From NCBI GenBank assembly GCA_001795735.1, contig MGKQ01000017.1, positions 3,326-67,325 on the forward strand: a stretch of 64,000 nt of DNA. Reading direction: 5' to 3'. Of this stretch, positions 873 to 60,970 are shown piece after piece. The stretch is from Candidatus Yanofskybacteria bacterium RIFCSPLOWO2_02_FULL_41_13 (GTDB taxonomy: Bacteria; Patescibacteriota; Minisyncoccia; 2-02-FULL-40-12; GWA2-44-9). The translations under genes were made by a program, and so were the position numbers. Below the pieces are notes generated by a model. The model saw nothing but the letters and a program-made list of their open reading frames with translations. It ran no database searches and had not been told where the DNA came from. Each line of letters opens with the position of its first letter. The first letter of the stretch is position 1.

Positions 873-929
873 TGAGGTAGAACGTTGACAAAGGGCACTG
901 GTGCCCAACAGTTCTTTAAGGAGGATACC

Positions 930-1127
930 ATGTTCCAGCTTGGTGATCGTCTCGAACTCATCGGTTCCAGTAAGCGTGGCGGCTACGGAGACACCATTCT
1001 TCATGACGTTGCGGACACGGTCACGGTCGCTGAGGTGGTTTCGAGCCAGTTCGGCGACTGGCAGTTCGTTCGGATCGTCGGCCACGACAGACTTTTCCCC
1101 GCCGACTGGTTCGTCAAGATCAACTGA
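930..1127 (+). CDS. small hypothetical protein, 65 aa, on the high-GC island
   Basis: ORF 885..1127. A strong SD AAGGAGG lies 5 nt upstream of the ATG at 930. GC is well above the rest of the window by eye. Confidence 0.45.
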   Translation: MFQLGDRLELIGSSKRGGYGDTILHDVADTVTVAEVVSSQFGDWQFVRIVGHDRLFPADWFVKIN

Positions 1128-1272
1128 TCAAACGGATTCGTGCTCTTGCTGCAAAAGAGGGCTCCTAATGGTGGTGGTCAACCTGGGCGAAACTAAGTTT
1201 CGCCCCTTTCCTGAGACTACGAAATTATTCGCGGTCTCAGAATTGGGAAGTTCTTTTAATGGAGGGTGTGCT

Positions 1273-1644
1273 ATGAACCAAAATATGGAGGCTTGGCGTC
1301 ATCGAATGATTCAAAATGGTGCCGCGGTCAAGAAGATTTCGAAGGCGCTTGTGATTGCCTACTGGACCGAGAGTCGCGAGTCAGATGAAAGGCCGTGCTT
1401 TGCCTCTTACTTTTCAAGAAAAGACTATATCTGCTTCAATGTTTTCTATCGAGGCGTGGAGCAGACAGAGGAGGTTTGGTCGGCTACCTACGCTCGTTTC
1501 CCCGATGGGTGGGGACTCGTCGACTCAAAGGACGTTGAGCCTGTGAAGTTTGAGATGGGCCAATTTTCCGAATCCATCGTGAAGATTAAGGTCTTGGCGC
1601 GGCATGGTCGACAATATACGTTAACCTTCCGCTTCTCAAATTGA
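1273..1644 (+). CDS. hypothetical protein, 123 aa, on the high-GC island
   Basis: This is the in-frame 3' part of track ORF 901..1644. SD GGAGGG precedes the ATG at 1273. A weak hairpin plus T7 follows at about 1709-1731. Confidence 0.45.
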   Translation: MNQNMEAWRHRMIQNGAAVKKISKALVIAYWTESRESDERPCFASYFSRKDYICFNVFYRGVEQTEEVWSATYARFPDGWGLVDSKDVEPVKFEMGQFSESIVKIKVLARHGRQYTLTFRFSN

Positions 1645-1735
1645 ATCACAACGGATTCCTGTACTTTTCCGAAAAAGAGTACTCCTCGCCCTGGAGGTCA
1701 AGGGTGCCACGCATATTGCGTAGCTTTTTTTATTT

Positions 1736-3943
1736 CTACTTCCTGGTTCTATTATGATACCTTTGATGGACTTCTCTTAATTGTTTGTCCGTTACGTGGG
1801 TGTATATCTGGGTTGTTGTCACTGAGGCATGGCCAAGCATAGACTGGACTGAGCGGATATCAGCACCATTACGGAGAAGGTCTGTGGCATACGAATTATG
1901 AGAGATAAATCCATCTGTAATGAGATTGTGAGTCGAATCAATGCCAAAATCAAAAACTTGTTGTTCGTCAGTTTTTATATTGTTAATTTTTTTAACCTTA
2001 AGCCAGATGAGATTTGAATTATCAGCCAGACTCTCTAAAAGTCGGCCTACACTTGAGAAATTCTCACCTTTTTTAAAGGTTTTTAGGCCGAGGATTATTT
2101 TGGATAGTAGATTTCTTGTCGGTGCCAACCACCTATATCTTCGTAGGTACTTTATATTATATTTTTTTTCAAGATATTGATGGAATCCGCTTTTCTCGGG
2201 TAAAGAATCCAGGATTTGAGATATCAAAGTTTGAGCAGGAATCTTATCAGACTCTATTTTGTCAGCTTTTCCTTGATAGATTATATCTTTTTTCAAAGTT
2301 GGAATAAGTTTTTTAAACTTTTTTTGCCCTTCCCTATCAAGGACATGGAGGGTAAAAATTGTATTGGGAATGATTTTACCTTGAGGCAATTTTACCATAC
2401 GATTTCTTTCTAAAACATGACTATCTATACCGAGCCGTATTAATAGCATTTGCAGATCTTTTAGCAGTTCTTTGCTGGAGGAAAAAATTTTTATGGTGCC
2501 GCTGTTACCTTCGGCATCATATATCCCGGCTAGAAACTGTCTAATTTCTGGTTCCGTCGCTTGTAATAATTGAGGGGGGACTCTCTTGTATGGTCCGGTT
2601 CCAATTGGAATGTAATTTCTTAAAAAACTGACCATCTTTTTTGAATAAAAAATTAGCTTATAGGAATTGCTATCTCTCTTTACTAAAAAGGGTTTCTTAC
2701 CAAAGTTTTTTTCAAAAATATTACTATAAAATTTTAAAAAATCCTTATTCTTATCATATATTTTTACCCCACGAAAACGTTCGTTAATCACTCCATCACC
2801 CAGAATATACCCGATAAGTCTCCAAATCTCTGGTTTAAGAAACTTGCGCCCGATCATTTTGATTTCTTTTACCCCAGCAAGATAAGTTCCTAGTTTAATA
2901 TCCTTAGCTTCTATTTCATCAATACCGCCGGTATTTATTGTAAATAGACGGTGTTTGGGTGTGCAAATAAGTTCGTGGCCATCAGCTCGAATTCTAATCA
3001 ACTTATTTTCCATATGACTAAATTTCTGTACCACTTTTTTATCCCTCAATAGACCCCTTTCAAAATCCATGCTTTTGGCGAAGGTGTTGCGGTTTTTGAA
3101 AAGAGTAAGGGCCGAGCAGATCTCCTTATCTAGAAAAATCCTTGTTTCTCTATGCAGACAATGTCTCAATGTATGAGGACTTATTTTTTTACCCATTATC
3201 CCGGCTTTTATTGAATATTTTTTAATAATTCTCTGGATGCTTCTTGGGGTCAGGCGCAAGTTGTCATCTTTTGAAAATGTCTTGCTCTTTGGGATTCTAA
3301 TGAACAGGGCCTCGTCGACATCAGAACGTTTGGATATATACTCATTTATTCTTTTTTTGGCATCCTCCGAAAGAAAAACAAGCCTTATCTTACCGCCCTT
3401 GCCCCTGATCGATAGCTCTCCCCTCTTAACGTCTATTTCCCCCCGATTAAGCGAGCACAGTTCGGATACACGCATACCGGTACTGAAAAGAGTTACGAGA
3501 ATTGCTCTGTCCCTCATCACATCAAGATTCATTCCTTCTGGGGCATCAAAAAGACGCTGAATTTCATCCAGCTCAAGAAATGTCACTTCCCTATCCTCCT
3601 GCTTGCCTAGCTCTATTCTCTCAGCCGGAACAGTTTTTATCCCGACTTTTACTAAATACTTTAAAAAATTACGCAAAGCAATTACATGATAATTCTGGGT
3701 TATTTTCTTAAGCGGCCGGCCTTTTGAATCGCGCAGACGATTTAAATTTAAACGGTACTGGCGGATTAAGTCTTCGTTTAGCTGGCCTATGGTTTTTATC
3801 TTAGCAAAAGCCAGAAACCTATCTAAATACCGCCCATAGTTCTCAAGGGTCTTTAAAGACTTGTTCTTCTCTATCTCCAGATATTCCAGATATCTTATTT
3901 TTAAATCTTTAATGTCCGACATATTTGGGGCCTGCTCCGTCAC
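1736..3943 (-). CDS. tyrosine site-specific recombinase, XerC/XerD-like, with an in-frame intein
   Basis: The N-terminal core-binding domain and the catalytic motifs are present: '[23 protein letters not shown]', 'HTLRH' and '[34 protein letters not shown]'. The two extein halves total about 313 aa, which is typical Xer size. The intein begins 'HTLRH|C' and ends 'HN|S'. Confidence 0.8.
1895..3160 (-). mobile_element. intein, about 422 aa, with a LAGLIDADG homing-endonuclease domain, inside the recombinase
   Basis: Starts with Cys (codon 3158-3160, minus strand) right after HTLRH. Block B reads 'TPKHRLF'. The LAGLIDADG motifs are '[11 protein letters not shown]' and '[10 protein letters not shown]'. 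It ends 'FISHN' followed by Ser (1892-1894). Confidence 0.75.
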
Positions 3944-5338: not shown

Positions 5339-5387
5339 TTCATAGATAATTCGGGGCAGATCGAGAAACAAGGTAGTCGGGGTTTTC

Positions 5388-5423
5388 CCCAGCCCTAGTT
5401 TTTTTTAAAAAACTAGGGCTGGG
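5388..5423 (+). promoter_or_regulatory. near-perfect 17-bp-stem hairpin (cccagccctagtttttt / aaaaaactagggctggg) between the NYN gene and pnp
   Basis: The palindrome was read directly. Its position upstream of pnp recalls the RNase III-processed pnp leader, or it may be a bidirectional terminator. Confidence 0.5.
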
Positions 5424-5467
5424 AAGAATCTCGTTACTCGTCTGGCCTGGTTATTTACCTGATCTAA

Positions 5468-7567
5468 ATGCCTATTAAAAGGTATGAGGAAGAGTTCGCG
5501 GGAAAACTGCTGAAAGTTGAAATTGGCCGGTTAGCCAACCTGGCTAACGGCTCGGTCTATGTTCAGTACGGAAATACGGCTGTTCTTGTAACGGCGGTAA
5601 TGTCTTCGTCGACAAAATCGGTAGATTATATGCCTCTTTCGGTTGACTACGAAGAAAGATATTATGCCGCCGGAAAAATTAAAGGTTCAAAATGGATGAA
5701 AAGAGAAGGTCGGCCTTCGGATGAGGCAATTCTAAGCGGACGCCTGATTGATCGGTCTTTGCGTCCTCGATTTGATCATCGAATACGCAATGATATTCAA
5801 ATCGTAGCAACGGTGCTGTCTTTTGACGGACAAAACGATCCAGATATGCCGGCATTATTTGGCGCATCTCTAGCCTTAACGATATCGGATATTCCCTTTA
5901 ACGGCCCGGTGGCAAGTACCCGAATCGGACGGATTGAAGGCAAATTAGTTTTCAATCCCACCTATGAAGAACGGCTAAAAAGCGACTTTGACATTGTCGC
6001 CGCCGGAACTTCCAACCGGATAAATATGATCGAAGCCGGAGCTTCAATAGTGGCTGAAAAAGACATTGCCGAAGCAATTGTTTCTGGCTTTAAAGAATTT
6101 CAAAAACTCATCAAATTTCAGGAGGTTATCTCCGGTGATTTAAAACCCAAAAAACGACAGCTTGCTTTAGCCGAAACGGACAAAGAACTTGCCAAGGCGG
6201 TTAAAGACTTTTCAGCTTCAAGCCTTGAAAAAGCAATTTATACCAAGAATAAGCAGGAGTATGTCGAAAATATGGCCAAAGCGAAGGAAGACCTATCGCA
6301 ACGCATAAAAGACTTGTTTAAAGATACTTCCAATATTGATGCAAAGCTCAAAGAAGCTGTCCACTTGTTCGACGAGGAGATCAATGATGTTGTTCATGAG
6401 AATATTCTGGCGTCCGAAAAAAGACCCGACTTCAGAAAATTAGATGAAGTAAGAGAACTGGCCGTAGACTGCGGCGTTCTCCCCCATTCTCATGGTTCAG
6501 GATTGTTTCAGCGCGGAACAACCCAGGTTCTTTCCACCTTAACCCTGGCTTCTCCGGGTATGGAACAGTGGGTAGAAACAATGGAAATAGAGCTTACTAA
6601 AAAAAGATTTATGCATCATTACATATTCCCACCATTTAGCGTCGGCGAAGTTGGCCGAATCGGAGGTACTGGACGGCGCGATATCGGTCACGGAGCCTTA
6701 GCTGAGAGAGCTCTGTCGCCTGTTATTCCCCCGAAAGATTCTTTTCCCTACACAATTCGTATGGTTTCCGAAACGCTGGCCTCCAATGGGTCATCTTCGA
6801 TGGCTTCGGTCTGCGGTTCATCTCTGGCTTTGATGGACGGTGGCGTACCAGTTTCTTCAGCTGTAGCCGGCATTGCCATGGGGGTTATGTTCGATAAGGA
6901 AGGTCAAAATTATAAAGTTTTAACCGACATTCAGGGTCCCGAAGACCATCATGGCGATATGGATTTCAAAGTTGCCGGAACCAAAGATGGCATCACTGCC
7001 ATGCAGATGGATGTTAAAGTTGAAGGAATCACCGGTGAAGTTCTTGAAAAAGCCCTCCTTCAAGCCCAAAAAGCCCGGCTGGAAATCCTCGGAAAAATGA
7101 ATTCCAAAATTGCCCAGCCCAGACCCGATCTTTCGCCTCTAGCCCCCCGAGTTCAGACCATCAAAATAGATCCCGAAAAAATAGGGGCGGTTATCGGCAA
7201 AGGCGGTGAAATAATCAACAAAATTATCGAAGAAACTGGCGCAGAAATTGATATTGAAGACGATGGGTCAATTTTTATTACCTGCATATCGGCCGAGGGA
7301 ATGAAGAAGGCTATTTCTATGATTGAAGAGCTCACCTATGAGGTAAGGCCGGAAGACGAGTTTGATGGCAGAGTTGTTAGCATTAGGGACTTCGGGGCTT
7401 TTATTGAGATCATGCCGGGAAAGGATGGTATGGTTCACATCTCAGAGATAAGCGATGAGAGAGTAAAAAGCGTTTCGGATGTTCTAAAGATGGGCCAAAA
7501 AGTTCACGTTCGGGTTAAGGGTGTTGATGAGATGGGCAGGATAAGTTTAACTATGAGAAAGAAGTAA
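5468..7567 (+). CDS. pnp: polynucleotide phosphorylase
   Basis: 699 aa. Two RNase PH domains and C-terminal KH plus S1 domains are present ('GEIINKIIEETGAEIDIEDDG', 'GRVVSIRDFGAFIEI'). Confidence 0.95.
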   Translation: MPIKRYEEEFAGKLLKVEIGRLANLANGSVYVQYGNTAVLVTAVMSSSTKSVDYMPLSVDYEERYYAAGKIKGSKWMKREGRPSDEAILSGRLIDRSLRPRFDHRIRNDIQIVATVLSFDGQNDPDMPALFGASLALTISDIPFNGPVASTRIGRIEGKLVFNPTYEERLKSDFDIVAAGTSNRINMIEAGASIVAEKDIAEAIVSGFKEFQKLIKFQEVISGDLKPKKRQLALAETDKELAKAVKDFSASSLEKAIYTKNKQEYVENMAKAKEDLSQRIKDLFKDTSNIDAKLKEAVHLFDEEINDVVHENILASEKRPDFRKLDEVRELAVDCGVLPHSHGSGLFQRGTTQVLSTLTLASPGMEQWVETMEIELTKKRFMHHYIFPPFSVGEVGRIGGTGRRDIGHGALAERALSPVIPPKDSFPYTIRMVSETLASNGSSSMASVCGSSLALMDGGVPVSSAVAGIAMGVMFDKEGQNYKVLTDIQGPEDHHGDMDFKVAGTKDGITAMQMDVKVEGITGEVLEKALLQAQKARLEILGKMNSKIAQPRPDLSPLAPRVQTIKIDPEKIGAVIGKGGEIINKIIEETGAEIDIEDDGSIFITCISAEGMKKAISMIEELTYEVRPEDEFDGRVVSIRDFGAFIEIMPGKDGMVHISEISDERVKSVSDVLKMGQKVHVRVKGVDEMGRISLTMRKK

Positions 7568-9246: not shown

Positions 9247-9372
9247 AAATGTCACCAATTAATGTAGATTTTAAGCTATTTTTTGAAGGTGACATTTATC
9301 GGTGACATAATTTTTATTGGTGACAAATTATCCACAGACTGCCATGTTGACTTTGCATAATGCAGGATGCTA
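9247..9372 (+). promoter_or_regulatory. operator/promoter region upstream of the dksA-like gene
   Basis: It holds a 10-bp inverted repeat aaatgtcacc...ggtgacattt and three direct GGTGACA repeats (9286-9325). A perfect DnaA-box TTATCCACA lies at about 9328-9336. A putative promoter reads TTGACT, 18 nt spacer, TATACT (about 9347-9376). Confidence 0.4.
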
Positions 9373-9639
9373 TACTCAGTATAGATCCTTATTTGCTGGT
9401 GTTTATTAAAAGTTGTAATAAATGCTGGCTCAATTTTCAGATCTCTGGCGGAATAATTTTTTCTATCTAGGAGGACTTATTTCGCCAGGGATCTAAATAG
9501 CCCTGGCTCAAGTTAAAGCACTTAGCTTAATTCATTGAGTATCAGGGCTTTTTATTATAAAAGTTTTGACCGTATCTAGCATTTTGCCTTTTAATTTCCA
9601 TCATGATATGCTGATTTATTCCCAGTTTAATACAGTCCA

Positions 9640-12939: not shown

Positions 12940-13311
12940 ATGAATGAAAAAATAATTGAGTTTGGAAAATGGGCCGAAGATTATGTCGCACAATATCTAA
13001 AGGGGCGAGGGTATACTGTTCTGGGCCAAAATTATCAGAAACCTTGGGGCGAAATAGATATAATTGTTGAGAAAGAGGGAGTCCTCATTTTTGTTGAAGT
13101 TAAGGCGAATAAAAGAGAGATGGCCGGCTTTGAACCGGAAAACAGAATAAATCCGGAGAAGTTAAGAAGATTGAACCGGGCGATACAAACATACCTAGCT
13201 TCAAAAAAATATAGTCCGGACCAGGATTGGCAAATTGATGTCATCGCCCTGACGTTTGACAAAGATAGGGGAGTGGCCAAAATCAAACACTTCAAAAATA
13301 TTGATGTTTAA
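12940..13311 (+). CDS. yraN: YraN-family (UPF0102) endonuclease-like protein
   Basis: 'GYTVLGQNYQKPWGEIDIIVEKEGVLIFVEVKA'. Confidence 0.7.
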   Translation: MNEKIIEFGKWAEDYVAQYLKGRGYTVLGQNYQKPWGEIDIIVEKEGVLIFVEVKANKREMAGFEPENRINPEKLRRLNRAIQTYLASKKYSPDQDWQIDVIALTFDKDRGVAKIKHFKNIDV

Positions 13312-13320
13312 TATAGCTAA

Positions 13321-13536
13321 TCTCCTCCCCATTTTTCGACCTGTTGAATTTCTTCGGACAAATAGTTAAATTAACCTCAATTTAGTTAACAAATTTGAGC
13401 CTCGTCGCTCGACATCTTTTTATACTAAAAAGATATCGGACTCCCCACTCAAATTTGTGGAATAACATAAATTATCGGTTAATTTAACTATTGTGTATTC
13501 CTTGAAACCAAACGGTCTGCAAAATGGGGAGGGGAT
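13321..13536. repeat. large imperfect inverted repeat, about 90 bp arms, with a central hairpin, in a 650 bp non-coding region
   Basis: Outer arms tctcctccccatttt / aaaatggggaggg. Inner perfect arms agttaaattaacc / ggttaatttaact. Central hairpin atcttttta-tac-taaaaagat. Confidence 0.6.
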
Positions 13537-13972
13537 CAGCTCAGTTTTATTTATTAAGAGTGGTCCCACCTTTTTGAGTCAGTATTGTAAGCTTCTCCTT
13601 ACTCATAATAAAGAGTGAGCTCATCTCCCGATTTATTCTCCTCGCCTGCGAATTTCCTCTCTGGGTATAGTCTCCTAGCTTACCCCTAGCAGATCATTAA
13701 TTATCTTGCTTATATCTCCCTGAAACCGTTTGAGCAACTTCATAATAAACTCGAGATATTTATGAAAGTTTTTCAGAAGACAAAGAATTGGGAGTGAGTC
13801 TTGTCTAGTATTGGTAATGCTTATTACCAATATGTCTATAAGACTGACGAGCGGGACCCAATTTTATGTCTGGAAAATGAATAAATATCGAAAAGTTTAT
13901 TGATGTTGCGAAGGTGTTGAAGAGGGATATAAGCAAGACAGTAACCCTCATTTTACCTCACTTTCCAAGCCC

Positions 13973-14001
13973 TTTACAAAAAGGTAGAAAGGTGATATAA
14001 T
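13973..14001 (+). promoter_or_regulatory. sigma70-like promoter: TTTACA, 17 nt spacer, TATAAT
   Basis: Read directly. It lies about 70 nt upstream of the GC-rich gene at 14070. Confidence 0.55.
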
Positions 14002-14069
14002 GTATATACACAGTCGAGACAGATCTTCGACAATTTTCGCCCCTTGAACGGGGCAGAGGAGAAGACAAA

Positions 14070-14864
14070 ATGAGGAGCATTCTTTCGTTTTTCGTCGTCG
14101 TCGCAACTCTGGCCACGGCCATTCCGGCTGAGGCTCAACAGAGTCCGCTCGTAACCTTGATGGCCGAAAGGATCATCAACAGTTCCAGCGGCATATACGG
14201 CGGTGGCTACTACGGCCCGCGCCTCGGTCGCAACTATGGGGGTTACTACCAGATCGAGCTGGCCATGGTTGTAGACTTTCTCAAAATGCCTGGAGTGCTG
14301 AACGCATGTACGCTGAGCACGAGCGTCTCCAACCCGGAGAAGCAAGTGGCGATGAACTGCCACATCATCATGAGAAGCTCACCGGAGAGCGTCCAGGCCC
14401 AGCTTGGGAACTTCCCGGAATCGGATCTACTCGGAACGCAGCACCCAGAAGCCGGAGTAATGCACATCCGTGCATATGATCCGACGCACAAGCCGTTCAA
14501 CAGAAACCACAAGGATTGCATACCTGTTGAATCACGCGCAATTCAGCCGGCACCGATGCCGACGGCAGAGGTGGCAACACCACTTCCGACACCACAAACC
14601 GTTCCGGTCAAGAGGATCGATCCAGAGGAGGAGATGTCTTGGAATACGGTCAACACTACCGACTTCACAGCGGTGGTCGTTGATCCGAACACGGGAAGGA
14701 AGGAACTGATCTCAGCAATGAGCTCAGCCAGCCTTTCAACTCCGACCGGTTCGAAACCGTACGTGGTAACGTTGCTTGTGCCGGGACGAGGCAACATCGA
14801 CAAGGTTCCCGGCGAGATTCGTCCCAGCAAAGACCTACAGGGCTGGGAAATCGTAGCCCGATAA
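14070..14864 (+). CDS. secreted hypothetical protein, Gly/Tyr-rich, on high-GC island 2
   Basis: Signal peptide 'MRSILSFFVVVATLATAIPAEA'. Carries 'GGGYYGPRLGRNYGGYY' and a PT-rich linker. SD GAGGAG. Composition is far richer in GC than the flanks. Confidence 0.6.
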   Translation: MRSILSFFVVVATLATAIPAEAQQSPLVTLMAERIINSSSGIYGGGYYGPRLGRNYGGYYQIELAMVVDFLKMPGVLNACTLSTSVSNPEKQVAMNCHIIMRSSPESVQAQLGNFPESDLLGTQHPEAGVMHIRAYDPTHKPFNRNHKDCIPVESRAIQPAPMPTAEVATPLPTPQTVPVKRIDPEEEMSWNTVNTTDFTAVVVDPNTGRKELISAMSSASLSTPTGSKPYVVTLLVPGRGNIDKVPGEIRPSKDLQGWEIVAR

Positions 14865-14875
14865 AGGAGATTGAC

Positions 14876-15517
14876 ATGGAACGAATACTGAGAAGGATCG
14901 GATTCTTCTCCTCGGCGGACCAAAATCCGCCGACGGCAACTTGTAATCAACCTGAGGCACCGGGTCCGAACCCGATGCCTCAGCCGACACCACGCCAGGC
15001 AAGGACGAGAAATCGTCCACCGACACGCCTAGCGTACACACGTCATGCCTCAGCAGGCGACGGCGACGACGTGATTGTCAACCCAGCATGGAATCAGTTC
15101 AAAACAGCCATGGTCTGGATTGGGGGCATCGCCGTTCTTGCCTGGATCTTCGGCGGCGGATACCTAGCTGGCCGACCATCGATGGTTAGCCAGCAAACAC
15201 AACAAGTCGTCACCAATCACGCTCAAGTGCCGACTGCGACTCAGCAGACGGCCTTAGAGCAAGGAGCAGTGATGACAACGGAAACGATCAAGGAGGCATT
15301 GACCGAAGCAGGAGAAATCCTGTCGGCCACCAACGTAGTTCGTGGTCAGGTGAAGGAGATGGCTCAGGCCGAGCTCCCACCGACGCCACCCTCGCCTCCG
15401 CCTTCGGTCGAAAAACCGAATGCGGAACCGCCGCCCGCTCCACCCACCCTCACTGATGCCCAACAGCGCAACGAGGCGTTGAAACAACGCCTTCGAGAAC
15501 GCTACGACATCAAGTAG
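14876..15517 (+). CDS. hypothetical membrane-anchored protein, Pro-rich, on high-GC island 2
   Basis: One TM segment 'MVWIGGIAVLAWIFGGGYLAG'. SD AAGGAG. Translationally coupled to the previous gene. Confidence 0.55.
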   Translation: MERILRRIGFFSSADQNPPTATCNQPEAPGPNPMPQPTPRQARTRNRPPTRLAYTRHASAGDGDDVIVNPAWNQFKTAMVWIGGIAVLAWIFGGGYLAGRPSMVSQQTQQVVTNHAQVPTATQQTALEQGAVMTTETIKEALTEAGEILSATNVVRGQVKEMAQAELPPTPPSPPPSVEKPNAEPPPAPPTLTDAQQRNEALKQRLRERYDIK

Positions 15518-15523
15518 GTTCCA

Positions 15524-15580
15524 AGCTCGTACCTTCCAACCCAGTTCATCTGGGCCATCGGAAGGACGAGCTTTTTTCTT
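15524..15580 (+). terminator. intrinsic terminator closing island 2
   Basis: Stem agctcgtaccttcc / ggaaggacgagct followed by TTTTTTCTT. Confidence 0.55.
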
Positions 15581-15788
15581 TATCTTGAGCCCACCGAAAG
15601 AATTGAAAAAATTCCCACAAACTGTAGACTATAATCAATAGATTTGAGCTAAGTTCGAGGCAGAATCGAGTATTGATTCGAGGCGTAGTAGGACTACGGC
15701 GAGAATCAAGCGGAGATTTTAACGAAGAAATTAGCCAAACCTGAAAGGTGTGCCGCTGGCCTAAAATTCATATTAGGCCCGGCATATA

Positions 15789-16238
15789 TTGATTATGAAA
15801 CATATCACTAAAAGCCCGAAGGAAACTCAAAAACTAGGGCATTTTTTATTAAATAAAATAAGCGTTGGTACCCAAAAGAGCGGTTTGATTATAGCCTTAT
15901 CGGGAGAGCTTGGAGCAGGCAAGACAACCCTTGTTCAGGGATTGGCAAAAATATTAGGCATAAAAACCAAAGTAAAAAGCCCCACTTTTACCCTTATTAA
16001 GAAGTACAAACTTCCAAAAAAGTTTAAAAATTCTAAATATCTATATCACATAGACTGCTACCGCTTGAAAAATCATAAAGATTTATTATCTCTCGGAATA
16101 AAGAATATATTGAAAGACAAAGAAAATATAATTCTGATTGAGTGGCCAGAAAAGATAAGGAAAATATTATCCGACAAAAAAATAGACATTAGAATCGAGC
16201 ATATAGACAAGAACACAAGGAAAATAGCTGTAAGCTAG
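15789..16238 (+). CDS. tsaE: tRNA t6A biosynthesis ATPase TsaE (YjeE)
   Basis: 'GELGAGKTTLVQGLAKILGI' and 'YHIDCYRL'. Confidence 0.8.
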   Translation: MIMKHITKSPKETQKLGHFLLNKISVGTQKSGLIIALSGELGAGKTTLVQGLAKILGIKTKVKSPTFTLIKKYKLPKKFKNSKYLYHIDCYRLKNHKDLLSLGIKNILKDKENIILIEWPEKIRKILSDKKIDIRIEHIDKNTRKIAVS

Positions 16239-16412
16239 GTTTAATAGAATAATCTGTAGATCTCAGAGGCTATAATTCTAGCGAAGAAATACGCAGACCG
16301 ATCGGCTTGGTTCTGCGATCGGTCGAGTACTTAAGATTCGATTTCCGCTGGAGAAATCGAATGTGGTCTGAGTCTGAATTATAGTCTTTGAGATCTAAGC
16401 CACCCAATCAGT

Positions 16413-19055
16413 ATGAAAAAATTAGTCTTAATCGACTCAAACGCCCTAGTCCATCGGGCATTCCATGCTTTGCCCCCAACCCTTACCTCACCTAAGGGTG
16501 TTTTGACCAATGCCGTTTATGGTTTTACGTCAGTTCTCATAAAAATGCTTAAAGATTTAAAACCCGATTATATTGCCGCAACTTATGATTTAGCTGGCCC
16601 TACATTTCGCCATAAGGAATTTGAAGAGTATAAAGCCCACCGGGAGAAAGCCCCTGACGAGCTATACGCCCAGATACCACTAACCAAGGAAGTGCTTAAA
16701 ACATTCGGGATACCCATATATGAGAAACAGGGGTTTGAGGCTGATGACCTAATCGGTGCTTTAGCCGAGAGGGGTAAAAAAGAGAAGAATCTGCAGGTCA
16801 TAATCGTAACCGGCGACTTGGACACTCTTCAGCTGGTTGATAAAGATAAAGTCGTTGTTTTTACATTAAGAAAAGGCTTGACCGACACGGTAACCTACAA
16901 CGAGGGCGAGGTACAAAAAAGATATGGCCTCAAGCCAGAGCAAGTTGTTGATTTTAAGGGATTAAAAGGCGATCCATCCGATAATATCCCAGGAGTACCG
17001 GGGATAGGGGAGAAGACGGCAGCGATGCTTATTCAAAAATTTGGGAGCATGGAGAATCTTTATGACAGTATCGCTGAAATCAAAAATCAAAAATCAAAAA
17101 TCAAAAATCAAGGTTTATCAGAAAAGTTAATACAAAAACTTCAGGAGAATAAAGACCAGGCATTCTTTTCAAAAAAACTGGCCACCATCGTCAGGACGGT
17201 TGATATTGATTTCAGTCTTGAAAAAACAGATTGGCGTAAAAATCTCGATCTCCAAGCAATCGAGAAAACTTTTAAAGACTTCGGCTTTTACAGCTTAGTT
17301 AAAAGATTGTCCGAGATAGATGTACAAAGCTCTATATCAACGCTAGACCTTAACCTAGCGCCAGCCCTACTTCAGGAAAGCACTCATATAAAGTCCTGTG
17401 ACTCAGTGAAAGAAATAAAAAATGCCGTTGATAAAATAAAGCTAAAGAAAGAAGTTGTCCTGGAGCTAGTAGGCGATAGACTGGTATTTACCTCTGATAG
17501 CAAGGAGTTTTTCTCTACAAAAACCGAATTATTGAGCCTCCTAAAAGAAGTTTTCGAGGACGGAAATATATCTAAGACCGGACATGATCTAAAACCTGTA
17601 GCCAAGGAATTTCTTAAAAAAGGTATTCATATTAAGGGCCTGTCTTTTGATACTAAGATAGCGGCCTATCTTGTAAAAGCCGACAGAAAAGACTATGACT
17701 TGCCGATAATGTATCAGAACGAACTAGGCAAAGATCTTGCGGTGGGGGGTGCTAACCGCCTTGATGCGGTCTTAGAACTTAAAAAAATATTTTGGGATAA
17801 GCTAAAGAACGACGGTCTTATTAAAATCTTTGAAGAGATAGAAATGCCGCTGGTTCCGGTTTTGGCCGAAACGGAGCTAAATGGCTTAAAGATAGATATC
17901 AGCTCTCTTAAAAAACTATCGTTATCGGTTAACAAAGAGTTGTCTGGGTTAGAGAAGAAGATACACAAACATGCCGGCACCCAGTTTAATATTAATTCAC
18001 CCAAACAATTAAAGGAGATTCTTTTTGAGAGACTGGGCCTAAAAGGCAAGGTCAGAAAAACAGCTAAGGGCGCCCTTTCAACTGCGGCCGGAGAACTTGA
18101 TAAATTATCAGGCGAACATCCCATTGTTGATCTTATCCTAAAATACAGGGAGCTTCAGAAAATTAAGACTACTTATATTGAACCCTTCCCCCACCTTATT
18201 GACCAAAAGACAGGGAGGCTTCATACGACCCTCAATCAGACGGGTACTGTCACTGGTCGTTTATCAAGCCAAGACCCTAATCTTCAGAATATTCCTATTA
18301 AAACAGAGTTGGGTCAGGAGTTTAGAAAAGCGTTCATCTCATCTCCCGGCTATAAATTAGTGTCTCTTGACTATTCACAGCTTGAACTCAGAATCGCCGC
18401 CCATATTTCCGGTGATAAAAAAATGACCGAAGCGTTTAAAAGAGGGGAGGACATTCATACTCGGACGGCGGTAGAAATTTTTGGAGTCACGCCGGAAAAA
18501 GTCACGGCCAATATGCGCCGGGAGGCAAAAGCTATGAATTTCGGCCTTCTTTATGGAATGGGAATTCTTGGTTTTCAAAGAGCATCGGGTACATCGAGAG
18601 AACAGGCCAAAGAATTCATCAATCGTTATATGGCAGAATTCAGCGGAATTGCCCGATATATGGAGGATATCAAGAAAAAAGCCTGCAAAGACGGTTATGT
18701 TTCGACTATCCTCGGCCGACGCAGATACCTACCGGAGATTAATTCCGGCATACCTCAGCTGATGGCCCAAGCAGAGAGAATGGCTATAAACCACCCTGTT
18801 CAGGGAACCGAGGGGGACTTTCTAAGAATTGCTATGAATAGGATATCCGATTTAATTCACAAAGAGTTCAACGATAACGATGTAAAAATGCTTCTTCAGG
18901 TGCACGATGAGCTTCTGTTTGAGGTTAAAAATAATTTAGTCGAAAAAATATCAAAAGTGATTAAGAGTATCATGGAGTCAGTTTATAGACTCGATGTTCC
19001 GCTTATCGTTGATGCCAGATATGGCAATAACTGGCGGGATATGGAGCCAATTTAG
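16413..19055 (+). CDS. polA: DNA polymerase I
   Basis: N-terminal 5'-3' exonuclease domain. Polymerase motifs A 'DYSQLELRIAAH', B 'RREAKAMNFGLLYG' and C 'VHDELLFEV' are present. Confidence 0.95.
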   Translation: MKKLVLIDSNALVHRAFHALPPTLTSPKGVLTNAVYGFTSVLIKMLKDLKPDYIAATYDLAGPTFRHKEFEEYKAHREKAPDELYAQIPLTKEVLKTFGIPIYEKQGFEADDLIGALAERGKKEKNLQVIIVTGDLDTLQLVDKDKVVVFTLRKGLTDTVTYNEGEVQKRYGLKPEQVVDFKGLKGDPSDNIPGVPGIGEKTAAMLIQKFGSMENLYDSIAEIKNQKSKIKNQGLSEKLIQKLQENKDQAFFSKKLATIVRTVDIDFSLEKTDWRKNLDLQAIEKTFKDFGFYSLVKRLSEIDVQSSISTLDLNLAPALLQESTHIKSCDSVKEIKNAVDKIKLKKEVVLELVGDRLVFTSDSKEFFSTKTELLSLLKEVFEDGNISKTGHDLKPVAKEFLKKGIHIKGLSFDTKIAAYLVKADRKDYDLPIMYQNELGKDLAVGGANRLDAVLELKKIFWDKLKNDGLIKIFEEIEMPLVPVLAETELNGLKIDISSLKKLSLSVNKELSGLEKKIHKHAGTQFNINSPKQLKEILFERLGLKGKVRKTAKGALSTAAGELDKLSGEHPIVDLILKYRELQKIKTTYIEPFPHLIDQKTGRLHTTLNQTGTVTGRLSSQDPNLQNIPIKTELGQEFRKAFISSPGYKLVSLDYSQLELRIAAHISGDKKMTEAFKRGEDIHTRTAVEIFGVTPEKVTANMRREAKAMNFGLLYGMGILGFQRASGTSREQAKEFINRYMAEFSGIARYMEDIKKKACKDGYVSTILGRRRYLPEINSGIPQLMAQAERMAINHPVQGTEGDFLRIAMNRISDLIHKEFNDNDVKMLLQVHDELLFEVKNNLVEKISKVIKSIMESVYRLDVPLIVDARYGNNWRDMEPI

Positions 19056-33829: not shown

Positions 33830-33831
33830 CG

Positions 33832-34581
33832 ATGAAAGAACGAAATTTTATAGAAAAATATGAGGCAGTTTTTTCTCCGACTAAAGCTGTCGAGGGCTTA
33901 ACTCACGAACAATGGCTGGAAAAAATTCCGGAAGTTGATGCTGCAATTGTTCTTGGCTCCGGCTTGAAATTTTTACCGGATGAAAAAGACAAGCTTAATC
34001 TTCACGGCAAAATGAGAACTATCGCCGCCTACGAGTTATACAGACTCGGCAAAGCCAAGCAGATTATAGTTACCGGCGGAGTGCCGATCGGAGAGGGTTA
34101 TGACCGTTCTATGGCTGATGCAGAGGAAGAGTATTTGATTGAAAATTTGGATGCAAAACCAGAAGATGTCATCAAAGAGATTGGCGAGTCGTCTGAAAGT
34201 ACAATTGAAAACTTTGAAAACATATTAGATATACTTAAGAGCAAGGGTATAAAGACAGCCATTATTGTTTCTAACGGGTATCATATTCCCCGAGCCGAAG
34301 CCTTATTTAAAAAGATCTCCATCCAACACAATCTCAGTATTGAGGTTATGGGTATTCCCGCTGAAGAAATATTGTTAGAACGATCCACACATTATAAAAA
34401 ATTAGTGGAGCATTACGATATTGCAAAAAAAGCTCTTGAGCATCCCGGGAAAATTAGGAAATATATTGAGAAAGAGGGGATCGGTCTATTCCTAGCTCAC
34501 GTAGACAGGAACGATACAATTGCCCGCAATCGATCAGCAAAAAGAAAGAAGGAGAATAAACCCGACGCTCACGCAGAATAG
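33832..34581 (+). CDS. DUF218 (YdcF/ElyC-like) domain protein
   Basis: 'IIVTGGVPIGEGYDRSMADAEEEYL' and 'AIIVSNGYHIPRA'. The track ORF 33703 start overlaps the upstream gene, so the ATG at 33832 was chosen. Confidence 0.5.
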   Translation: MKERNFIEKYEAVFSPTKAVEGLTHEQWLEKIPEVDAAIVLGSGLKFLPDEKDKLNLHGKMRTIAAYELYRLGKAKQIIVTGGVPIGEGYDRSMADAEEEYLIENLDAKPEDVIKEIGESSESTIENFENILDILKSKGIKTAIIVSNGYHIPRAEALFKKISIQHNLSIEVMGIPAEEILLERSTHYKKLVEHYDIAKKALEHPGKIRKYIEKEGIGLFLAHVDRNDTIARNRSAKRKKENKPDAHAE

Positions 34582-34893
34582 CTATCTTAATATCCCTTAA
34601 GTCTCGGTTGATTTACTAAGAGAACAAGTGGATAAAATCTTTCCTTATCGTTTTTGATAACCGTTGCAAGAGGGTTAGGTATAAATAATAGCTTACCTAA
34701 AACCGACCCGCTTCGCCGGAGCTTCAGCGAGGCGAGCAGGAAAGCTTAAGGCGAAGGTTCACTGGAGGAACTTCCAGGGAATCGCCTCCGAAACTGACTG
34801 AAAGGAATTTCGGAAGGCCTTCCGGAGGTTTTAAGCCATTATTTGTCTAACCCGAAGCTCAGGTTGAGAAAATAATGAGGAAAGATTTTATAA

Positions 34894-42902: not shown

Positions 42903-44057
42903 ATGAAAGAAGAGAGAGACGATCCGATAGAAAGTTACCTTAAACCCAGATTAGCTAAGTTCGGGATAGCTCTTGGCAGGGGATTTCTTCCGCCAACAGA
43001 TCCTTTAACCTTGATGCCGGGCGAGTTCGGCTACTTAGATGTTTTTGGTAAGCAGATTCCTGATTTGCTTGAATCGGGAAACATTATCCAAGCGGCCAAA
43101 TCTCTACCCCTGCCTTCACAAAATGCCTTAGCCGTTCTTAGTCGGGCTGAAAAAGACAGGGCGATGATGATTTACGGTTTCGGGGCAAGTGCAGTTGTTC
43201 ACTCAACTAATCCGCCCCAGACCGTGATACCAAGACAAATTGCTGAACCTCTCTGCCGGCTTTCAAATGACTTTGGCAAAAAACCGATTCTTTCCTACTA
43301 TTCATACTCTTCGTCTAACTGGAGAAGGATTAATCCGGCAAATGACATAGCGCTCGGCAATATTGAACTTCTTCAGAATTTTGTGAAGGCCTATGACGAG
43401 GATTGGTTTATTTTAGTCCATGCGGCCATTGAGAAAAAAGCGGCTCTTGTGGTTGAAGGGGGGATTTTAGCCGCCGATATTGCTAAAGCAAGCAATACTC
43501 ATCTTCTTTGGCATGCATTATCAGATGTGAGTTCGGCCATTTGGGGAATGACGGTAGTCTTAAAGAGAATGCCCGAGCATTGCTCTCCGGATGTTTACTA
43601 TAAAACAGTTCGTCCGTGGATAATGCCTTTTAGCGATGTCGTTTTTGAAGGCGTCAGAGATGATCCGATAAAAGTATTGAGAGGTGAAACCGGCGCTCAA
43701 AGCCTGATCATCCCCTTTCTCGTTGCGTTACTGGGCATAAAACACGGGCAAACAGGACTGACTAACCATCTTATGGATATGCGTGATTACATGCCCCCCG
43801 GACACAGGATATTAGTTGAAGAAATGGAAAAAATCTCGATTATACGAAACTTGATAATCAAAACAGGCTTCAGGAATTTAGTAGAAATTTATAATGAATG
43901 TCTTGAAATGCTTTATGAATTCAGAGCTTTACATTACGAATACGCCATAACTTACATTCATAAGAAAACTGATAATCCTGAAGGAACCGGTAAAACTCCG
44001 TTCATGGAATGGTTAAAACAGCTGATGAACGAGACGCTGGAGCATAAAATAACTTAA
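42903..44057 (+). CDS. indoleamine 2,3-dioxygenase (IDO)-like heme dioxygenase
   Basis: 'GETGAQSLIIPFLVALLGI' matches IDO1 'GGSAGQSSVFQCFDVLLGI'. 'RDYMPPGHR' matches 'RRYMPPAHR'. A proximal His lies in 'ALHYEY'. 'EGTGKTPFMEWLK' matches 'KGTGGTDLMNFLK'. Confidence 0.7.
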   Translation: MKEERDDPIESYLKPRLAKFGIALGRGFLPPTDPLTLMPGEFGYLDVFGKQIPDLLESGNIIQAAKSLPLPSQNALAVLSRAEKDRAMMIYGFGASAVVHSTNPPQTVIPRQIAEPLCRLSNDFGKKPILSYYSYSSSNWRRINPANDIALGNIELLQNFVKAYDEDWFILVHAAIEKKAALVVEGGILAADIAKASNTHLLWHALSDVSSAIWGMTVVLKRMPEHCSPDVYYKTVRPWIMPFSDVVFEGVRDDPIKVLRGETGAQSLIIPFLVALLGIKHGQTGLTNHLMDMRDYMPPGHRILVEEMEKISIIRNLIIKTGFRNLVEIYNECLEMLYEFRALHYEYAITYIHKKTDNPEGTGKTPFMEWLKQLMNETLEHKIT

Positions 44058-47397: not shown

Positions 47398-47583
47398 TTT
47401 AGAATGCAGCTGGCTTAGTCAAATTCAAGGCAAAATTGAGCAAGAGAAGATTTTAACGAAGATGTTGGCTAAGAGTGTACTGCCGTAATCGAGCCTGGCT
47501 CGATGGCAAAGCGATTAGCAAGTTATAATGAATAAATATTTTATCTCAACTGCGATACCTTGCCAAGTCTGGTAAATTAAAAA

Positions 47584-60633: not shown

Positions 60634-60741
60634 ATATTATCAAGAGTGCGGCGAGAGTAACGGCTCAATGACCCGCTAGCAACGTGTCCTCTGATATTGT
60701 AGAGGATAACGTGCCCCATCCGTCCCGCACGGGAAGATAAT
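60634..60741 (+). promoter_or_regulatory. SAM-I-like riboswitch aptamer upstream of metK
   Basis: 'UAUCAAGAGUGCGGCGAGAGUAACGGCUCAAUGACCCGCUAGCAACG...GUGCC...' follows the SAM-I consensus 'UAUCaAGAGaGGcGGAGGGAcuGGCCCgauGAaaCCCgGCAACC'. P1 pairs attatc with gataat. P3 and P4 hairpins are identifiable. Confidence 0.6.
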
Positions 60742-60755
60742 TATGCTCATCATAA

Positions 60756-60790
60756 TAAAAATTCCACCGTGGGTGGAATTTTTATTATGA
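60756..60790 (+). terminator. riboswitch expression-platform terminator (aaaaattccacc-gtg-ggtggaattttt)
   Basis: Perfect 12-bp hairpin followed by a T run. Confidence 0.7.
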
Positions 60791-60970
60791 GCGGTGATTT
60801 AGGGGCTATTACCGGATACTGTTTCTACTGCAATTTTTAGATTTTGGCTACGGCTTTGCAAAAATTGTTCGACAGATACTCAATGTATATGCCTCACAAT
60901 TTTTACTTCGCCTCGCTCTAAATCTTAAAATTTCGTTACGAAAGTGTATTCGGCAATAGCCCCCCACATT

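What the first reader, a model, noticed from the sequence alone, without database searches (positions are those of the whole stretch)
13312..15585. A second GC-rich island holds a self-contained promoter-to-terminator cassette for a secreted Gly/Tyr-rich protein and a Pro-rich membrane protein. A 650 bp non-coding stretch with nested inverted repeats lies next to it
The segment 13970-15580 stands out from the AT-rich background by composition. It carries a textbook promoter (TTTACA, 17 nt spacer, TATAAT, at 13973-14001) and strong SD sequences. Two translationally coupled genes follow. One is a secreted protein with a signal peptide and GGGYYGPRLGRNYGGYY. The other is a TM-anchored protein with PT-rich tracts. 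An intrinsic terminator closes the unit. Upstream lies an unusually long non-coding region (13312-14069) for such a compact genome. It contains an approximately 215 bp nested inverted repeat. The pair could be a horizontally acquired surface or host-interaction module, possibly from a high-GC donor. If the organism is an epibiont, host-to-symbiont transfer is one possibility. That idea is speculative.
Basis: partly seen in the sequence, partly recalled or inferred. Interest (0 to 1): 0.6.

Follow-up and report, generated by a model that had tools for sequence, protein, structure and literature searches.

The report
Conserved GC-rich surface-protein operon, hairpin-flanked
The GC-rich patch is real, but it is not a recent foreign insert: it is a strongly promoted two-gene operon for an exported protein and a membrane partner that sits at the same chromosomal slot, and stays GC-rich, in at least nine related Parcubacteria lineages, next to conserved long hairpins.

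Summary
Observation confirmed. Window 14000-15580 is 55-58% GC against about 40% elsewhere. It has a near-consensus promoter, two closely spaced genes (14070-14864, 14876-15517) and a terminator. Upstream lies a 758-nt gene-free stretch with a 227-bp nested hairpin (13315-13541).

The interpretation (acquired from a high-GC donor) is not supported. Homologues of both proteins lie between yraN and tsaE-polA in nine lineages. In the eight with DNA they are 53-61% GC in 30-43% GC surroundings. Four short contigs carry the same GC-rich operon. Synonymous sites are near saturation, as in polA, so the composition has been maintained, not left over.

About half of the GC excess comes from amino-acid composition and half from codon choice. 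The promoter, upstream element and pre-SD hairpin are conserved. The proteins evolve fast and as a mosaic. They match no known family or fold. The family has 45 cluster representatives among 1.84 billion proteins.

Both long hairpins have orthologues with compensatory changes and a consistent strand preference.

In passing: a third hairpin (15623-15760) belongs to a widespread, strongly covarying RNA-like element that has no Rfam 15 match.

The parts
12940..13311 (+). yraN (UPF0102), the conserved upstream flank of the slot
   Evidence: Pfam PF02021, E 1.3e-21. The same gene precedes the operon in L001, L005, L014, L137 and the P0018 contig.
13315..13541 (-). hp1: a 227-nt long hairpin made of four nested arm pairs. 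On the + strand it is followed by a T-rich run (about 13545-13560).
   Evidence: Arm pairs. Fold z -9.6 (+) and -12.7 (-). Most extreme structure in the 64 kb. The orthologue at L014 4811-5012 lies directly after yraN, is 70% identical and shows 8-10 double compensatory changes. The minus strand is more stable in both copies. The strand given is the better-folding one; transcription is not shown.
13644..13686 (.). 44-nt block in the spacer between hp1 and hp2. It recurs, inverted, elsewhere in L014.
   Evidence: blastn gives 84% identity to L014 2894-2937. Function unknown.
13704..13938 (+). hp2: a 235-nt long hairpin that ends just before the promoter's upstream element
   Evidence: Arm pairs I3 and I13. 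Fold z -8.7 (+) and -7.6 (-). The orthologue lies in L012 at 5649-5890, in the same position relative to the promoter, with 9-10 double compensatory changes. The plus strand is more stable in the window, in L012 and in the second hairpin of L014.
13951..14001 (+). Promoter: conserved upstream element TTTTACCT (13951-13958), -35 TTTACA (13973-13978), extended -10 TGATATAAT (13993-14001)
   Evidence: 11 of 12 matches plus TG. These columns are invariant or nearly so in six lineages (alignment A4). They are also present in L137, L140, L015 and L016.
14002..14069 (+). 5' leader with two small hairpins (GTCGA 14013-14017 with TCGAC 14027-14031; GCCCC 14039-14043 with GGGGC 14050-14054) and the SD GAGGAG (14056-14061)
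   Evidence: Read from the sequence. A G+C-rich stem-loop 1-3 nt before the SD is present in all lineages, with four different stem sequences. Formal covariation could not be scored because the alignment failed for the divergent copies.
14070..14864 (+). ORF1: 264-aa exported protein. It has a signal peptide, a Gly/Tyr/Arg-rich low-complexity segment, an alpha/beta domain (about residues 60-155, with conserved Cys) and a C-terminal beta-sandwich (about residues 188-264).
   Evidence: Homologues P0002-P0004 have E 6e-71 to 7e-31. The family profile finds 45 representatives. AF2 model pLDDT is 70.7, with two domains at 85-92. No Pfam, NCBIfam or PDB match.
14876..15517 (+). ORF2: 213-aa single-pass membrane protein. 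It has a Pro/Arg-rich N-terminus, a TM span at about residues 78-100, a Pro/Thr-rich linker and a conserved C-terminal helix LTDAQQRNEALKQRLRERYDIK.
   Evidence: Positional homologues are 32-39% identical with the same architecture and C-terminal motif (alignment A2). The word-indexed search finds only the protein itself.
15523..15582 (+). Intrinsic terminator: 14-bp G+C-rich stem with an inner stem-loop, then TTTTTTCTTT
   Evidence: MFE -34 kcal/mol, z -5.3. GC falls to background right after it, here and in the other lineages.
15623..15760 (+). hp3: a member of a widespread structured repeat family. The core is AAGUUCGAGGC ... AACGAAGAAAUU around covarying stems. It lies between the terminator and tsaE.
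   Evidence: Covariance model R1 scores 100.6 bits. No Rfam 15 match.
15789..16238 (+). tsaE, the conserved downstream flank of the slot, followed by polA (16413-19055)
   Evidence: Pfam PF02367, E 9e-38. The same order is seen in all long related loci.

Best explanation
The island is an old, lineage-specific, bicistronic operon of a group of Parcubacteria that includes Yanofskybacteria and Taylorbacteria.

It is read from a strong, highly conserved sigma-70-type promoter through a structured leader and ends at an intrinsic terminator. It makes a Sec-exported two-domain protein (ORF1) and a single-pass membrane protein (ORF2). ORF2's Pro/Thr-rich stalk and conserved C-terminal helix lie outside the cell. 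I infer that ORF2 holds or organises ORF1 at the cell surface, forming an abundant envelope or host-contact module.

The operon keeps a fixed chromosomal slot: M23 peptidase / yraN, then the hairpins, then the operon, then an optional paaX-like gene, then tsaE and polA. Its proteins evolve much faster than the neighbours. They swap modules: a glycine-zipper insert is present or absent, there are alternative C-terminal domains, and ORF1 and ORF2 similarities are incongruent. This is the pattern expected for surface proteins under diversifying selection with occasional recombination between relatives.

The GC-richness is a long-maintained property of the coding region, not a trace of recent import. 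About half comes from a Pro/Ala/Thr/Arg/Gly-rich, Lys/Ile/Leu-poor amino-acid composition. About half comes from avoiding T- and A-ending codons. What maintains the codon part is not known. My leading guess is selection acting on the mRNA (stability or structure of a very highly expressed message in an AU-rich cell). The next guess is GC-biased gene conversion at a recombining locus.

The 650-nt non-coding stretch is not junk. It is two conserved long hairpins with a strand-specific folding preference. They most likely act at the RNA level as transcript-end, stabiliser or insulator structures between yraN and the strong promoter.

Shown: composition, signals, synteny, conservation, saturation of synonymous sites, compensatory changes.
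Inferred: expression level, export and topology, the ORF1-ORF2 partnership, the function, and the cause of the GC bias.
For: GC and GC3 contrast in the window.

The same slot in nine lineages. The same contrast is measured in the eight with DNA: the window, L001, L003, L005/L013, L012, L014, L137 and L138. The ninth is the P0018 contig, for which only the gene table is available.

Four short contigs (L011, L015, L016, L140) hold the same GC-rich operon; L015, L016 and L140 were also checked and carry the same promoter.

Synonymous-codon identity at identical residues is 0.447 observed against 0.35 expected for ORF1. For polA it is 0.459 against 0.39. Both are near saturation.

Between lineages polA is 70-83% identical, ORF1 35-59% and ORF2 27-72%. 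The pairs are incongruent. For example L001-L014 gives ORF2 72% but ORF1 46%, and L005-L012 gives ORF1 59% but ORF2 39%.

Partition of the GC excess. Background coding GC is 0.404. ORF1 is 0.561, and 0.472 would be expected from its amino acids with background codon usage. ORF2 is 0.584, with 0.523 expected.

The GC-rich part coincides with the coding sequences plus the terminator. The leader is 0.47 GC, the upstream spacer 0.37 and the downstream spacer 0.42.

The promoter and leader are conserved.

The protein family is real. It has a conserved signal peptide with an AEAQ cleavage motif, conserved Cys and a conserved C-terminal domain (alignments A1 and A3). The AF2 domains have pLDDT 85-92.

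Hairpin conservation and strand asymmetry.
Against: No expression, proteomic or localisation data exist. The signal peptide and topology were read by eye, not by a predictor.

No fold or family match gives a function.

The one ribosomal-protein gene in the window (S15) has an ordinary GC3 of 0.36. High expression alone therefore does not explain GC-rich codons in this genome.

The lineages compared are roughly equidistant (polA 70-83%). Vertical descent therefore cannot be separated from ancient or repeated exchange by tree congruence.

hp1 folds better on the minus strand although the T-run that would make it a yraN terminator is on the plus strand.

The first hairpin of L005 has no T-run after it.
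Confidence: 0.6

Rival explanations
1. It is a replacement-type cassette. The slot is fixed, but the operon or its parts is repeatedly exchanged among Parcubacteria lineages by homologous recombination in the conserved flanks (the promoter region and the hairpin elements). The GC-richness is carried by, or created by (GC-biased gene conversion), this recombining gene pool.
For: ORF1 and ORF2 similarities are incongruent between the same pairs of lineages. L001-L014 ORF2 keeps 0.675 synonymous-codon identity against 0.353 expected. That is far above polA (0.508 against 0.397) and suggests a more recent exchange of that gene. Domain modules differ between members. The promoter region is much more conserved than the genes. 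Hairpin elements of the same families occur on either side of the operon and in either orientation in different lineages.
Against: For most pairs synonymous sites are as saturated as in polA. No copy was found outside this slot, in viral contigs or in GC-rich genomes. GC drops sharply at the ends of the coding region and does not spill into the flanks, which is not what gene-conversion tracts would be expected to do.
Confidence: 0.25
2. One reading: a recently acquired module from a high-GC donor (for example an actinobacterial host), not yet ameliorated.
For: Composition and codon usage are atypical for the genome. The unit is self-contained, with its own promoter and terminator.
Against: It is present at the same slot, with the same composition, in at least nine lineages whose polA proteins are only 70-83% identical. 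Synonymous sites are near saturation. There is no homologue outside this small family among 1.84 billion representatives. There is no mobility gene, tRNA or direct repeat at the borders.
Confidence: 0.04
3. It is a secreted toxin or bacteriocin (ORF1) with a membrane immunity protein (ORF2), which would explain fast, arms-race evolution.
For: The pairing of an exported protein of about 25 kDa with a small membrane protein, its rapid divergence and its domain swapping.
Against: There is no similarity to any toxin, bacteriocin or immunity family in Pfam or NCBIfam. PHROGs and PADLOC were not searched. The operon is universal, single-copy and fixed in position in the clade, with a constitutive-looking consensus promoter. 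Many homologues carry a membrane-type glycine zipper, which suggests envelope residence rather than release.
Confidence: 0.08
4. It is an artefact: an assembly chimera, or a GC-rich structured RNA whose ORFs are spurious.
For: GC-rich DNA gives long chance ORFs on both strands. Several assemblies break at the borders of the island, giving contigs of 1.2-2.7 kb that hold only the island.
Against: The same junctions occur in independent long contigs from ENA, JGI, NCBI and Logan assemblies. Conservation is at the protein level, with variable linkers between conserved domains and a conserved signal peptide. There is no Rfam match.
Confidence: 0.02

Closest known systems
Replacement flexible genomic islands of aquatic prokaryotes (Lopez-Perez et al. 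2014, PMC4033161; abstract seen; concept from my own knowledge)
   Same: It occupies the same chromosomal position in all genomes and has conserved flanks. Its content encodes exposed envelope components. It is very divergent between genomes, has atypical composition and shows signs of recombination.
   Different: Those islands are usually tens of kilobases of glycosylation genes, usually of lower GC than the genome, and are defined between strains of one species. Here it is a 1.6-kb two-gene operon of higher GC, compared between species or genera, and the genes remain recognisably homologous.
Borrelia vlsE expression locus (from my own knowledge; not tested against sequences here)
   Same: A surface-protein gene much more GC-rich than its AT-rich genome, with a long inverted repeat next to its promoter.
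   Different: No array of silent cassettes and no internal repeats were found in the 64 kb. There is no strong GC skew. The resemblance is only an analogy.
Glycine-zipper envelope lipoproteins (SlyB/Pcp, YMGG, Rick_17kDa_Anti; Pfam PF13441, PF13488, PF05433)
   Same: Many ORF1 homologues carry a 40-residue glycine-zipper segment that matches these models near threshold (SlyB 7ojf, E 0.04).
   Different: The window's ORF1, P0002 and P0003 lack the segment. There is no lipobox. The flanking domains are unrelated. These organisms are thought to lack an outer membrane.
REP/ERIC/REPIN-type intergenic palindromes that stabilise or terminate flanking transcripts (from my own knowledge)
   Same: hp1 and hp2 are long imperfect palindromes in intergenic DNA. 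They keep their pairing through compensatory changes, and one is followed by a T-run.
   Different: They are single-copy in this 64 kb and two to three times longer. They are positionally conserved between genera, and each prefers one strand.

Membership tests
Recently acquired horizontal-transfer island | Composition and codon usage atypical for the host genome | tested here: met
   GC 0.56-0.58 against 0.40. GC3 0.59-0.65 against 0.31-0.47.
Recently acquired horizontal-transfer island | Patchy distribution: absent from the same site in related genomes | tested here: not met
   Present between yraN and tsaE-polA in all nine related lineages for which flanks could be read.
Recently acquired horizontal-transfer island | Low synonymous divergence from a donor, or between recipients | tested here: not met
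   Same-codon fraction at identical residues is 0.447 against 0.35 expected, similar to polA. No donor homologues were found.
Recently acquired horizontal-transfer island | Mobility hallmarks at the borders (integrase, tRNA, direct repeats) | tested here: not met
   No tRNA within 22 kb. No flanking direct repeats. The nearest integrase-like gene (1736-3943) is 9 kb away and belongs to the conserved neighbourhood.
Replacement flexible genomic island | Same position in all genomes, with conserved flanks and divergent content | tested here: met
Replacement flexible genomic island | Different versions among strains of one species | not testable with these tools
   Only between-species comparisons were available. 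Contigs of one species (L005, L006, L007, L013) carry an identical ORF1.
Sigma-70 promoter to intrinsic-terminator transcription unit | -35 and -10 hexamers at 17 nt spacing, conserved in orthologous loci | tested here: met
Sigma-70 promoter to intrinsic-terminator transcription unit | Mapped transcript start and end | not testable with these tools
   No transcript data are available.
Sec-exported protein (ORF1) | N-terminal n-h-c signal peptide with an AxA cleavage motif | tested here: met
   MRS / ILSFFVVVATLATAI / PAEA-QQ. The AEAQ motif is invariant or nearly so in the family. It was read by eye; no predictor was available.
Glycine-zipper lipoproteins (SlyB/YMGG) | Glycine-zipper segment | tested here: not met
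   Absent from the window's ORF1. Present near threshold in P0009, P0010, P0011, P0024 and P0027.
vls-like antigenic-variation locus | Array of silent cassettes homologous to the expressed gene | tested here: not met
   The island has no second copy in the 64 kb. The rest of the genome was not available.
Target gene of a diversity-generating retroelement | Template repeat and reverse transcriptase nearby | tested here: not met
   No repeat of any island segment occurs in the window.
MITE or REP-type mobile palindrome (hp1, hp2) | Multiple copies per genome | tested here: inconclusive
   Single copy in the 64 kb. The only relatives found are positional orthologues. The whole genome could not be searched.
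Any Rfam 15 family (hp1, hp2, hp3) | Covariance-model match | tested here: not met
   Only chance-level hits (E 0.3 or higher, far below gathering scores) in 13000-16100. The whole window gives 3 tRNAs only.

The most novel reading that the evidence does not exclude
The locus is a hairpin-bounded, self-contained expression cassette whose high GC content is actively maintained in AT-rich, reduced genomes by a locus-specific process. That process could be selection on the message of the cell's dominant surface protein pair. It could instead be GC-biased conversion during cassette exchange, promoted by the flanking long hairpins. The two strand-specific hairpins would then be functional RNAs that insulate or regulate the cassette. 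This would be a designed compositional island rather than a foreign one, and it would mark the main host-contact proteins of this uncultured clade.
Probability: 0.2. Interest if true: 0.7.

Novelty: new variant of a known kind. Interest (0 to 1): 0.5.

Why it matters
Atypical GC is routinely read as a sign of horizontal transfer. Here a 1.6-kb operon has kept a GC content 15-25 points above its genome through enough divergence to nearly saturate synonymous sites. Composition alone would mislead any island-calling pipeline on these genomes.

The operon has the best-conserved promoter seen at this locus. It encodes an uncharacterised, clade-restricted, fast-evolving exported protein with a membrane partner. 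That makes it a concrete candidate for the envelope or host-attachment machinery of uncultured Parcubacteria, about which almost nothing is known.

The conserved long hairpins, and the widespread unannotated structured repeat next to the operon, are leads for RNA biology in reduced genomes.

Tried and rejected
Rfam on the region at a permissive threshold and on the whole window: only chance hits and 3 tRNAs.

Pfam and NCBIfam on both proteins: nothing.

Protein-pattern scan of GTDB representative genomes: no confirmed relative. This is probably a limit of the two short patterns, because the family is in NCBI assemblies.

Viral contigs: none.

Word-indexed search with ORF2: the protein itself only.

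Spearman test of ORF1 or ORF2 identity against polA identity: uninformative, because the lineages are nearly equidistant.

RNAalifold on the 5' leader: MAFFT could not align the divergent hairpins, so there is no formal covariation.

Covariance model of the hp3 family against hp1 and hp2: no match, so they are not members of that family.

A silent-cassette or DGR explanation was rejected because there are no repeats.

A spurious-ORF or structured-RNA explanation was rejected on protein-level conservation.

My promoter pattern search used the wrong spacer and is not informative.

Literature searches by sequence words and by topic found no description of the operon, the GC phenomenon in these phyla, or the hp3 motif.
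Full report
WHAT IS THERE

The window comes from a Candidatus Yanofskybacteria genome. ORF1 is identical to an NCBI protein of that name.

Between yraN (12940-13311) and tsaE (15789-16238) lies a 2.5-kb insert-like region. Its right half, 14000-15580, is 55-58% GC against about 40% for the window. It is the only sustained stretch above 50% apart from a weaker patch near 900-1400.

- A TTTACA-17-TATAAT promoter with an extended -10 TG at 13973-14001.
- SD sequences before both genes.
- A 264-aa ORF with a signal-peptide-like N-terminus and a Gly/Tyr-rich tract.
- A 213-aa ORF, 11 nt downstream, with one hydrophobic span and Pro/Thr-rich tracts.
- A strong stem plus T-run at 15523-15582.

The left half, 13312-14069, has no credible ORF. 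It contains the reported nested inverted repeat (13315-13541, four nested arm pairs). This is the most extreme predicted structure in the whole 64 kb. It also contains a second, unreported long hairpin at 13704-13938. A third structured element lies just past the terminator at 15626-15797.

IS IT FOREIGN?

The decisive evidence came from relatives. ORF1 has few homologues. Every one whose context could be read sits in the same slot: M23 peptidase and yraN upstream, tsaE and polA downstream, sometimes with a paaX-like gene in between. It is followed by a positional homologue of ORF2.

In the eight lineages with flanking DNA (the window, L001 Taylorbacteria, L003, L005/L013, L012, L014, L137, L138) the operon is 53-61% GC with GC3 of 0.45-0.66. 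The neighbours are 30-46% GC with GC3 of 0.25-0.51. Four short contigs (L011, L015, L016, L140) hold the same GC-rich operon.

polA proteins of these lineages are only 70-83% identical. At residues that are identical between lineages, the same codon is used 44.7% of the time in ORF1, against 35% expected from codon usage alone. For polA the figures are 45.9% and 39%. Synonymous sites are therefore near saturation in both. The operon has been diverging about as long as its flanks, and its GC3 must be close to a local equilibrium.

A full HMMER profile search of 1.84 billion representative proteins found 45 members. No relative was found in viral contigs.

WHERE THE GC COMES FROM

The background coding GC of the window is 0.404. 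With that background codon usage, the amino acids of ORF1 would give 0.472, and the real value is 0.561. For ORF2 the figures are 0.523 and 0.584.

Roughly half of the excess therefore comes from amino-acid composition. Pro, Ala, Thr, Arg and Gln are enriched, while Leu and Ile are depleted. The other half comes from codon choice. T-ending and A-ending codons are avoided: GTT 0.22 against 0.45, TCT 0.03 against 0.23, TTA 0.03 against 0.22, AGA 0.14 against 0.42, AAA 0.40 against 0.69. Both C- and G-ending codons rise, so this is a general GC shift, not the pattern of selection for a particular tRNA set.

The GC-rich part coincides with the coding sequences and the terminator. The leader is 47% GC, the upstream spacer 37% and the downstream spacer 42%. 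In the other lineages GC also falls within about 150 nt of the ORF2 stop.

The S15 gene in the window has an ordinary GC3 of 0.36. High expression alone is thus not a general cause of GC-rich codons here.

I cannot decide what maintains the bias. Two candidates are selection on the message (stability or structure in an AU-rich cell) and GC-biased gene conversion at a recombining locus. The sharp boundaries favour the first, and the mosaic evolution favours the second.

THE OPERON AND ITS PROTEINS

The promoter region is far better conserved than the genes. An upstream TTTTACCT(A/C)(G/A)CTTT element, TTTACAAA at -35 and TGATATAAT at -10 are invariant or nearly so in six aligned lineages. They are present in four more.

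The leader always carries a G+C-rich stem-loop 1-3 nt before the GGAG SD, with at least four different stem sequences.

ORF1 family members share:
- the signal peptide with an AEAQ motif;
- a Gly/Tyr/Arg-rich low-complexity tract;
- a middle domain with conserved cysteines;
- in most, a C-terminal domain with the motif W-T-V-N-T-T-D-F ... P-G-E-I-R-P-S-x-D-L-Q-G-W-E-I-V-A-R.

Many members have a glycine-zipper insert that matches SlyB/YMGG-type models near threshold. The window's protein lacks it. A subgroup has a different C-terminal domain but the same slot.

The AlphaFold model built from 16 sequences has mean pLDDT 70.7. It gives two confident domains, residues 60-155 (alpha/beta) and 188-264 (beta-sandwich). 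Neither matches PDB or viral structures below E 1e-3.

ORF2 homologues are only 32-39% identical. They keep a Pro/Arg-rich N-terminus, one TM span, a Pro/Thr-rich linker and the C-terminal helix (L/S)(T/S)DAE(R/Q)RNEALKERLR(R)RY.

Similarities are incongruent between lineages. For L001-L014, ORF2 is 72% identical but ORF1 46%. For L005-L012, ORF1 is 59% but ORF2 39%. L001-L014 ORF2 also keeps unusually many identical codons. Parts of the operon have therefore been exchanged between lineages at least occasionally.

I infer, but have not shown, an abundant exported protein held or organised at the surface by its membrane partner, evolving under diversifying selection.

THE NON-CODING STRETCH

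hp1 has an orthologue directly after yraN in L014. It is 70% identical over 233 nt and has an apical deletion. It shows 8-10 pairs changed on both sides with pairing kept.

hp2 has an orthologue directly before the promoter in L012, with 9-10 such pairs.

L014 has the same two-hairpin layout. L005 and L003 have long hairpins of other sequence at the same place.

The folding energies are asymmetric, and consistently so. The yraN-proximal hairpin is more stable on the minus strand in the window, L014 and L005. The promoter-proximal one is more stable on the plus strand in the window, L012 and L014. This points to G-U pairs and hence to RNA, or a single strand, rather than a DNA cruciform.

hp1 is followed by a T-run on the plus strand here and in L014. 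That fits a giant terminator or 3' stabiliser for yraN, but it conflicts with the strand preference. This is unresolved.

Neither hairpin recurs in the 64 kb. Neither matches Rfam or the hp3 model.

THE ELEMENT DOWNSTREAM (hp3), FOLLOWED OUTSIDE THE FINDING

The hairpin at 15623-15760 is 77% identical to a reversed copy in L001, where it lies upstream of the operon. It also resembles a copy elsewhere in L003.

An exact scan of one genome per species for its two conserved strands, AAGTTCGAGGC-N(30-60)-AACGAAGAAATT, gave at least 119 places. I estimate about 0.5 would be expected by chance. Nearly all have the same 81-83-nt spacing.

The hits span Bacillaceae, Saccharibacteria, Doudna-, Kaiser-, Colwell-, Taylor- and Yanofskybacteria, Bacteroidota, Desulfobacterota, Campylobacterota, Aquificaceae, Neisseria and a Clostridia genome. 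There are often several copies per genome. Clusters of two or three copies occur within 8 kb in L073, L082, L097 and L109. The element is mostly intergenic and found in either orientation. In three Bacillaceae loci it lies just upstream of the 23S rRNA.

A covariance model finds 79 copies in 71 loci, including a second, shortened copy in this window at 47393-47494. On the model-fitted alignment 92% of cells pair. Fifteen of 20 pairs have changes on both sides. The covariation score is 0.469, against 0.139 for shuffles and below 0.09 for slid partners. Many pairs are G-U.

No Rfam 15 family matches any copy tested. I could not find it in the literature searched. It may nevertheless be described somewhere I could not search.

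VERDICT

The horizontal-transfer interpretation is not supported.

The best-supported reading is a clade-specific, strongly expressed surface operon at a fixed slot. It diverges fast, its GC-rich composition is intrinsic and long maintained, and it is preceded by two conserved strand-specific long hairpins.

It is a new variant of a known kind: a fixed-position, hypervariable envelope locus. Two features are odd. The compositional island is persistent and of high rather than low GC. Its proteins have no known relatives.

Noticed in passing
window 15623-15760 (+) and 47393-47494 (+); L001 2831-2968 (-); L003 8870-9005 (-); loci L018-L136: A widespread structured repeat with a conserved internal loop (AAGUUCGAGGC opposite AACGAAGAAAUU) and covarying stems. 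There are at least 119 exact-pattern hits across many bacterial phyla, often several copies per genome. It is mostly intergenic; in three Bacillaceae loci it lies just upstream of the 23S rRNA. No Rfam 15 match. Covariation is strong: 15 of 20 pairs, score 0.469 against 0.139 for shuffles.
   Followed up: partly
window 885-1650: Another GC-rich patch (0.50-0.54 GC) with the same design as the operon studied. It has a consensus promoter (TTGACA-17-TATACT with TG at about 843-871) and a G+C hairpin just before the AAGGAGG SD. Two small ORFs follow (931-1127 and about 1274-1644), then a terminator near 1670-1730. Whether it is also conserved in relatives was not checked.
   Followed up: no
window 1736-3943 (-): The tyrosine-recombinase (XerC/D-like) gene is about 735 aa long. 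It appears to be interrupted by an intein-like insert with LAGLIDADG-type motifs (for example LAGIYDAEG). Related loci have a phage-integrase-family gene at the corresponding place.
   Followed up: no
window 5341-5580, 60721-60960, 16261-16500, 9361-9600, 62401-62640: Other strongly structured 240-nt windows (z about -7 to -12 against shuffles) in intergenic regions. The one at 5378-5433 is a 27-nt-arm hairpin between the NYN-domain gene and pnp.
   Followed up: no
window 34632-34891 and 43112-43390: Two further long-range inverted repeats (arms of 23-26 nt, 214-227 nt apart). They may be further long hairpins of the hp1/hp2 kind. The first lies in a gene-free stretch of about 1 kb (33830-34893).
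   Followed up: no
window 57884-60070 (+): A 728-aa exported protein gene with very skewed third positions (C3 0.30, G3 0.09, T3 0.42) and GC skew down to -0.23. This is a different compositional oddity in another surface-protein gene.
   Followed up: no
L002, L004, L008-L011, L015-L017, L139, L140: Many public assemblies yield contigs of 1.2-2.7 kb that contain only the GC-rich operon. This suggests assemblies tend to break at the AT-rich hairpin flanks, or that strains vary there.
   Followed up: no
window 13979-13950 (-): On the minus strand, the conserved upstream element and -35 region of the operon promoter also read as TTGTAA-18-TAAAAT. A divergent promoter pointing into hp2 is possible. 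The conserved TTTTACCT could be its -10 rather than an UP element.
   Followed up: partly
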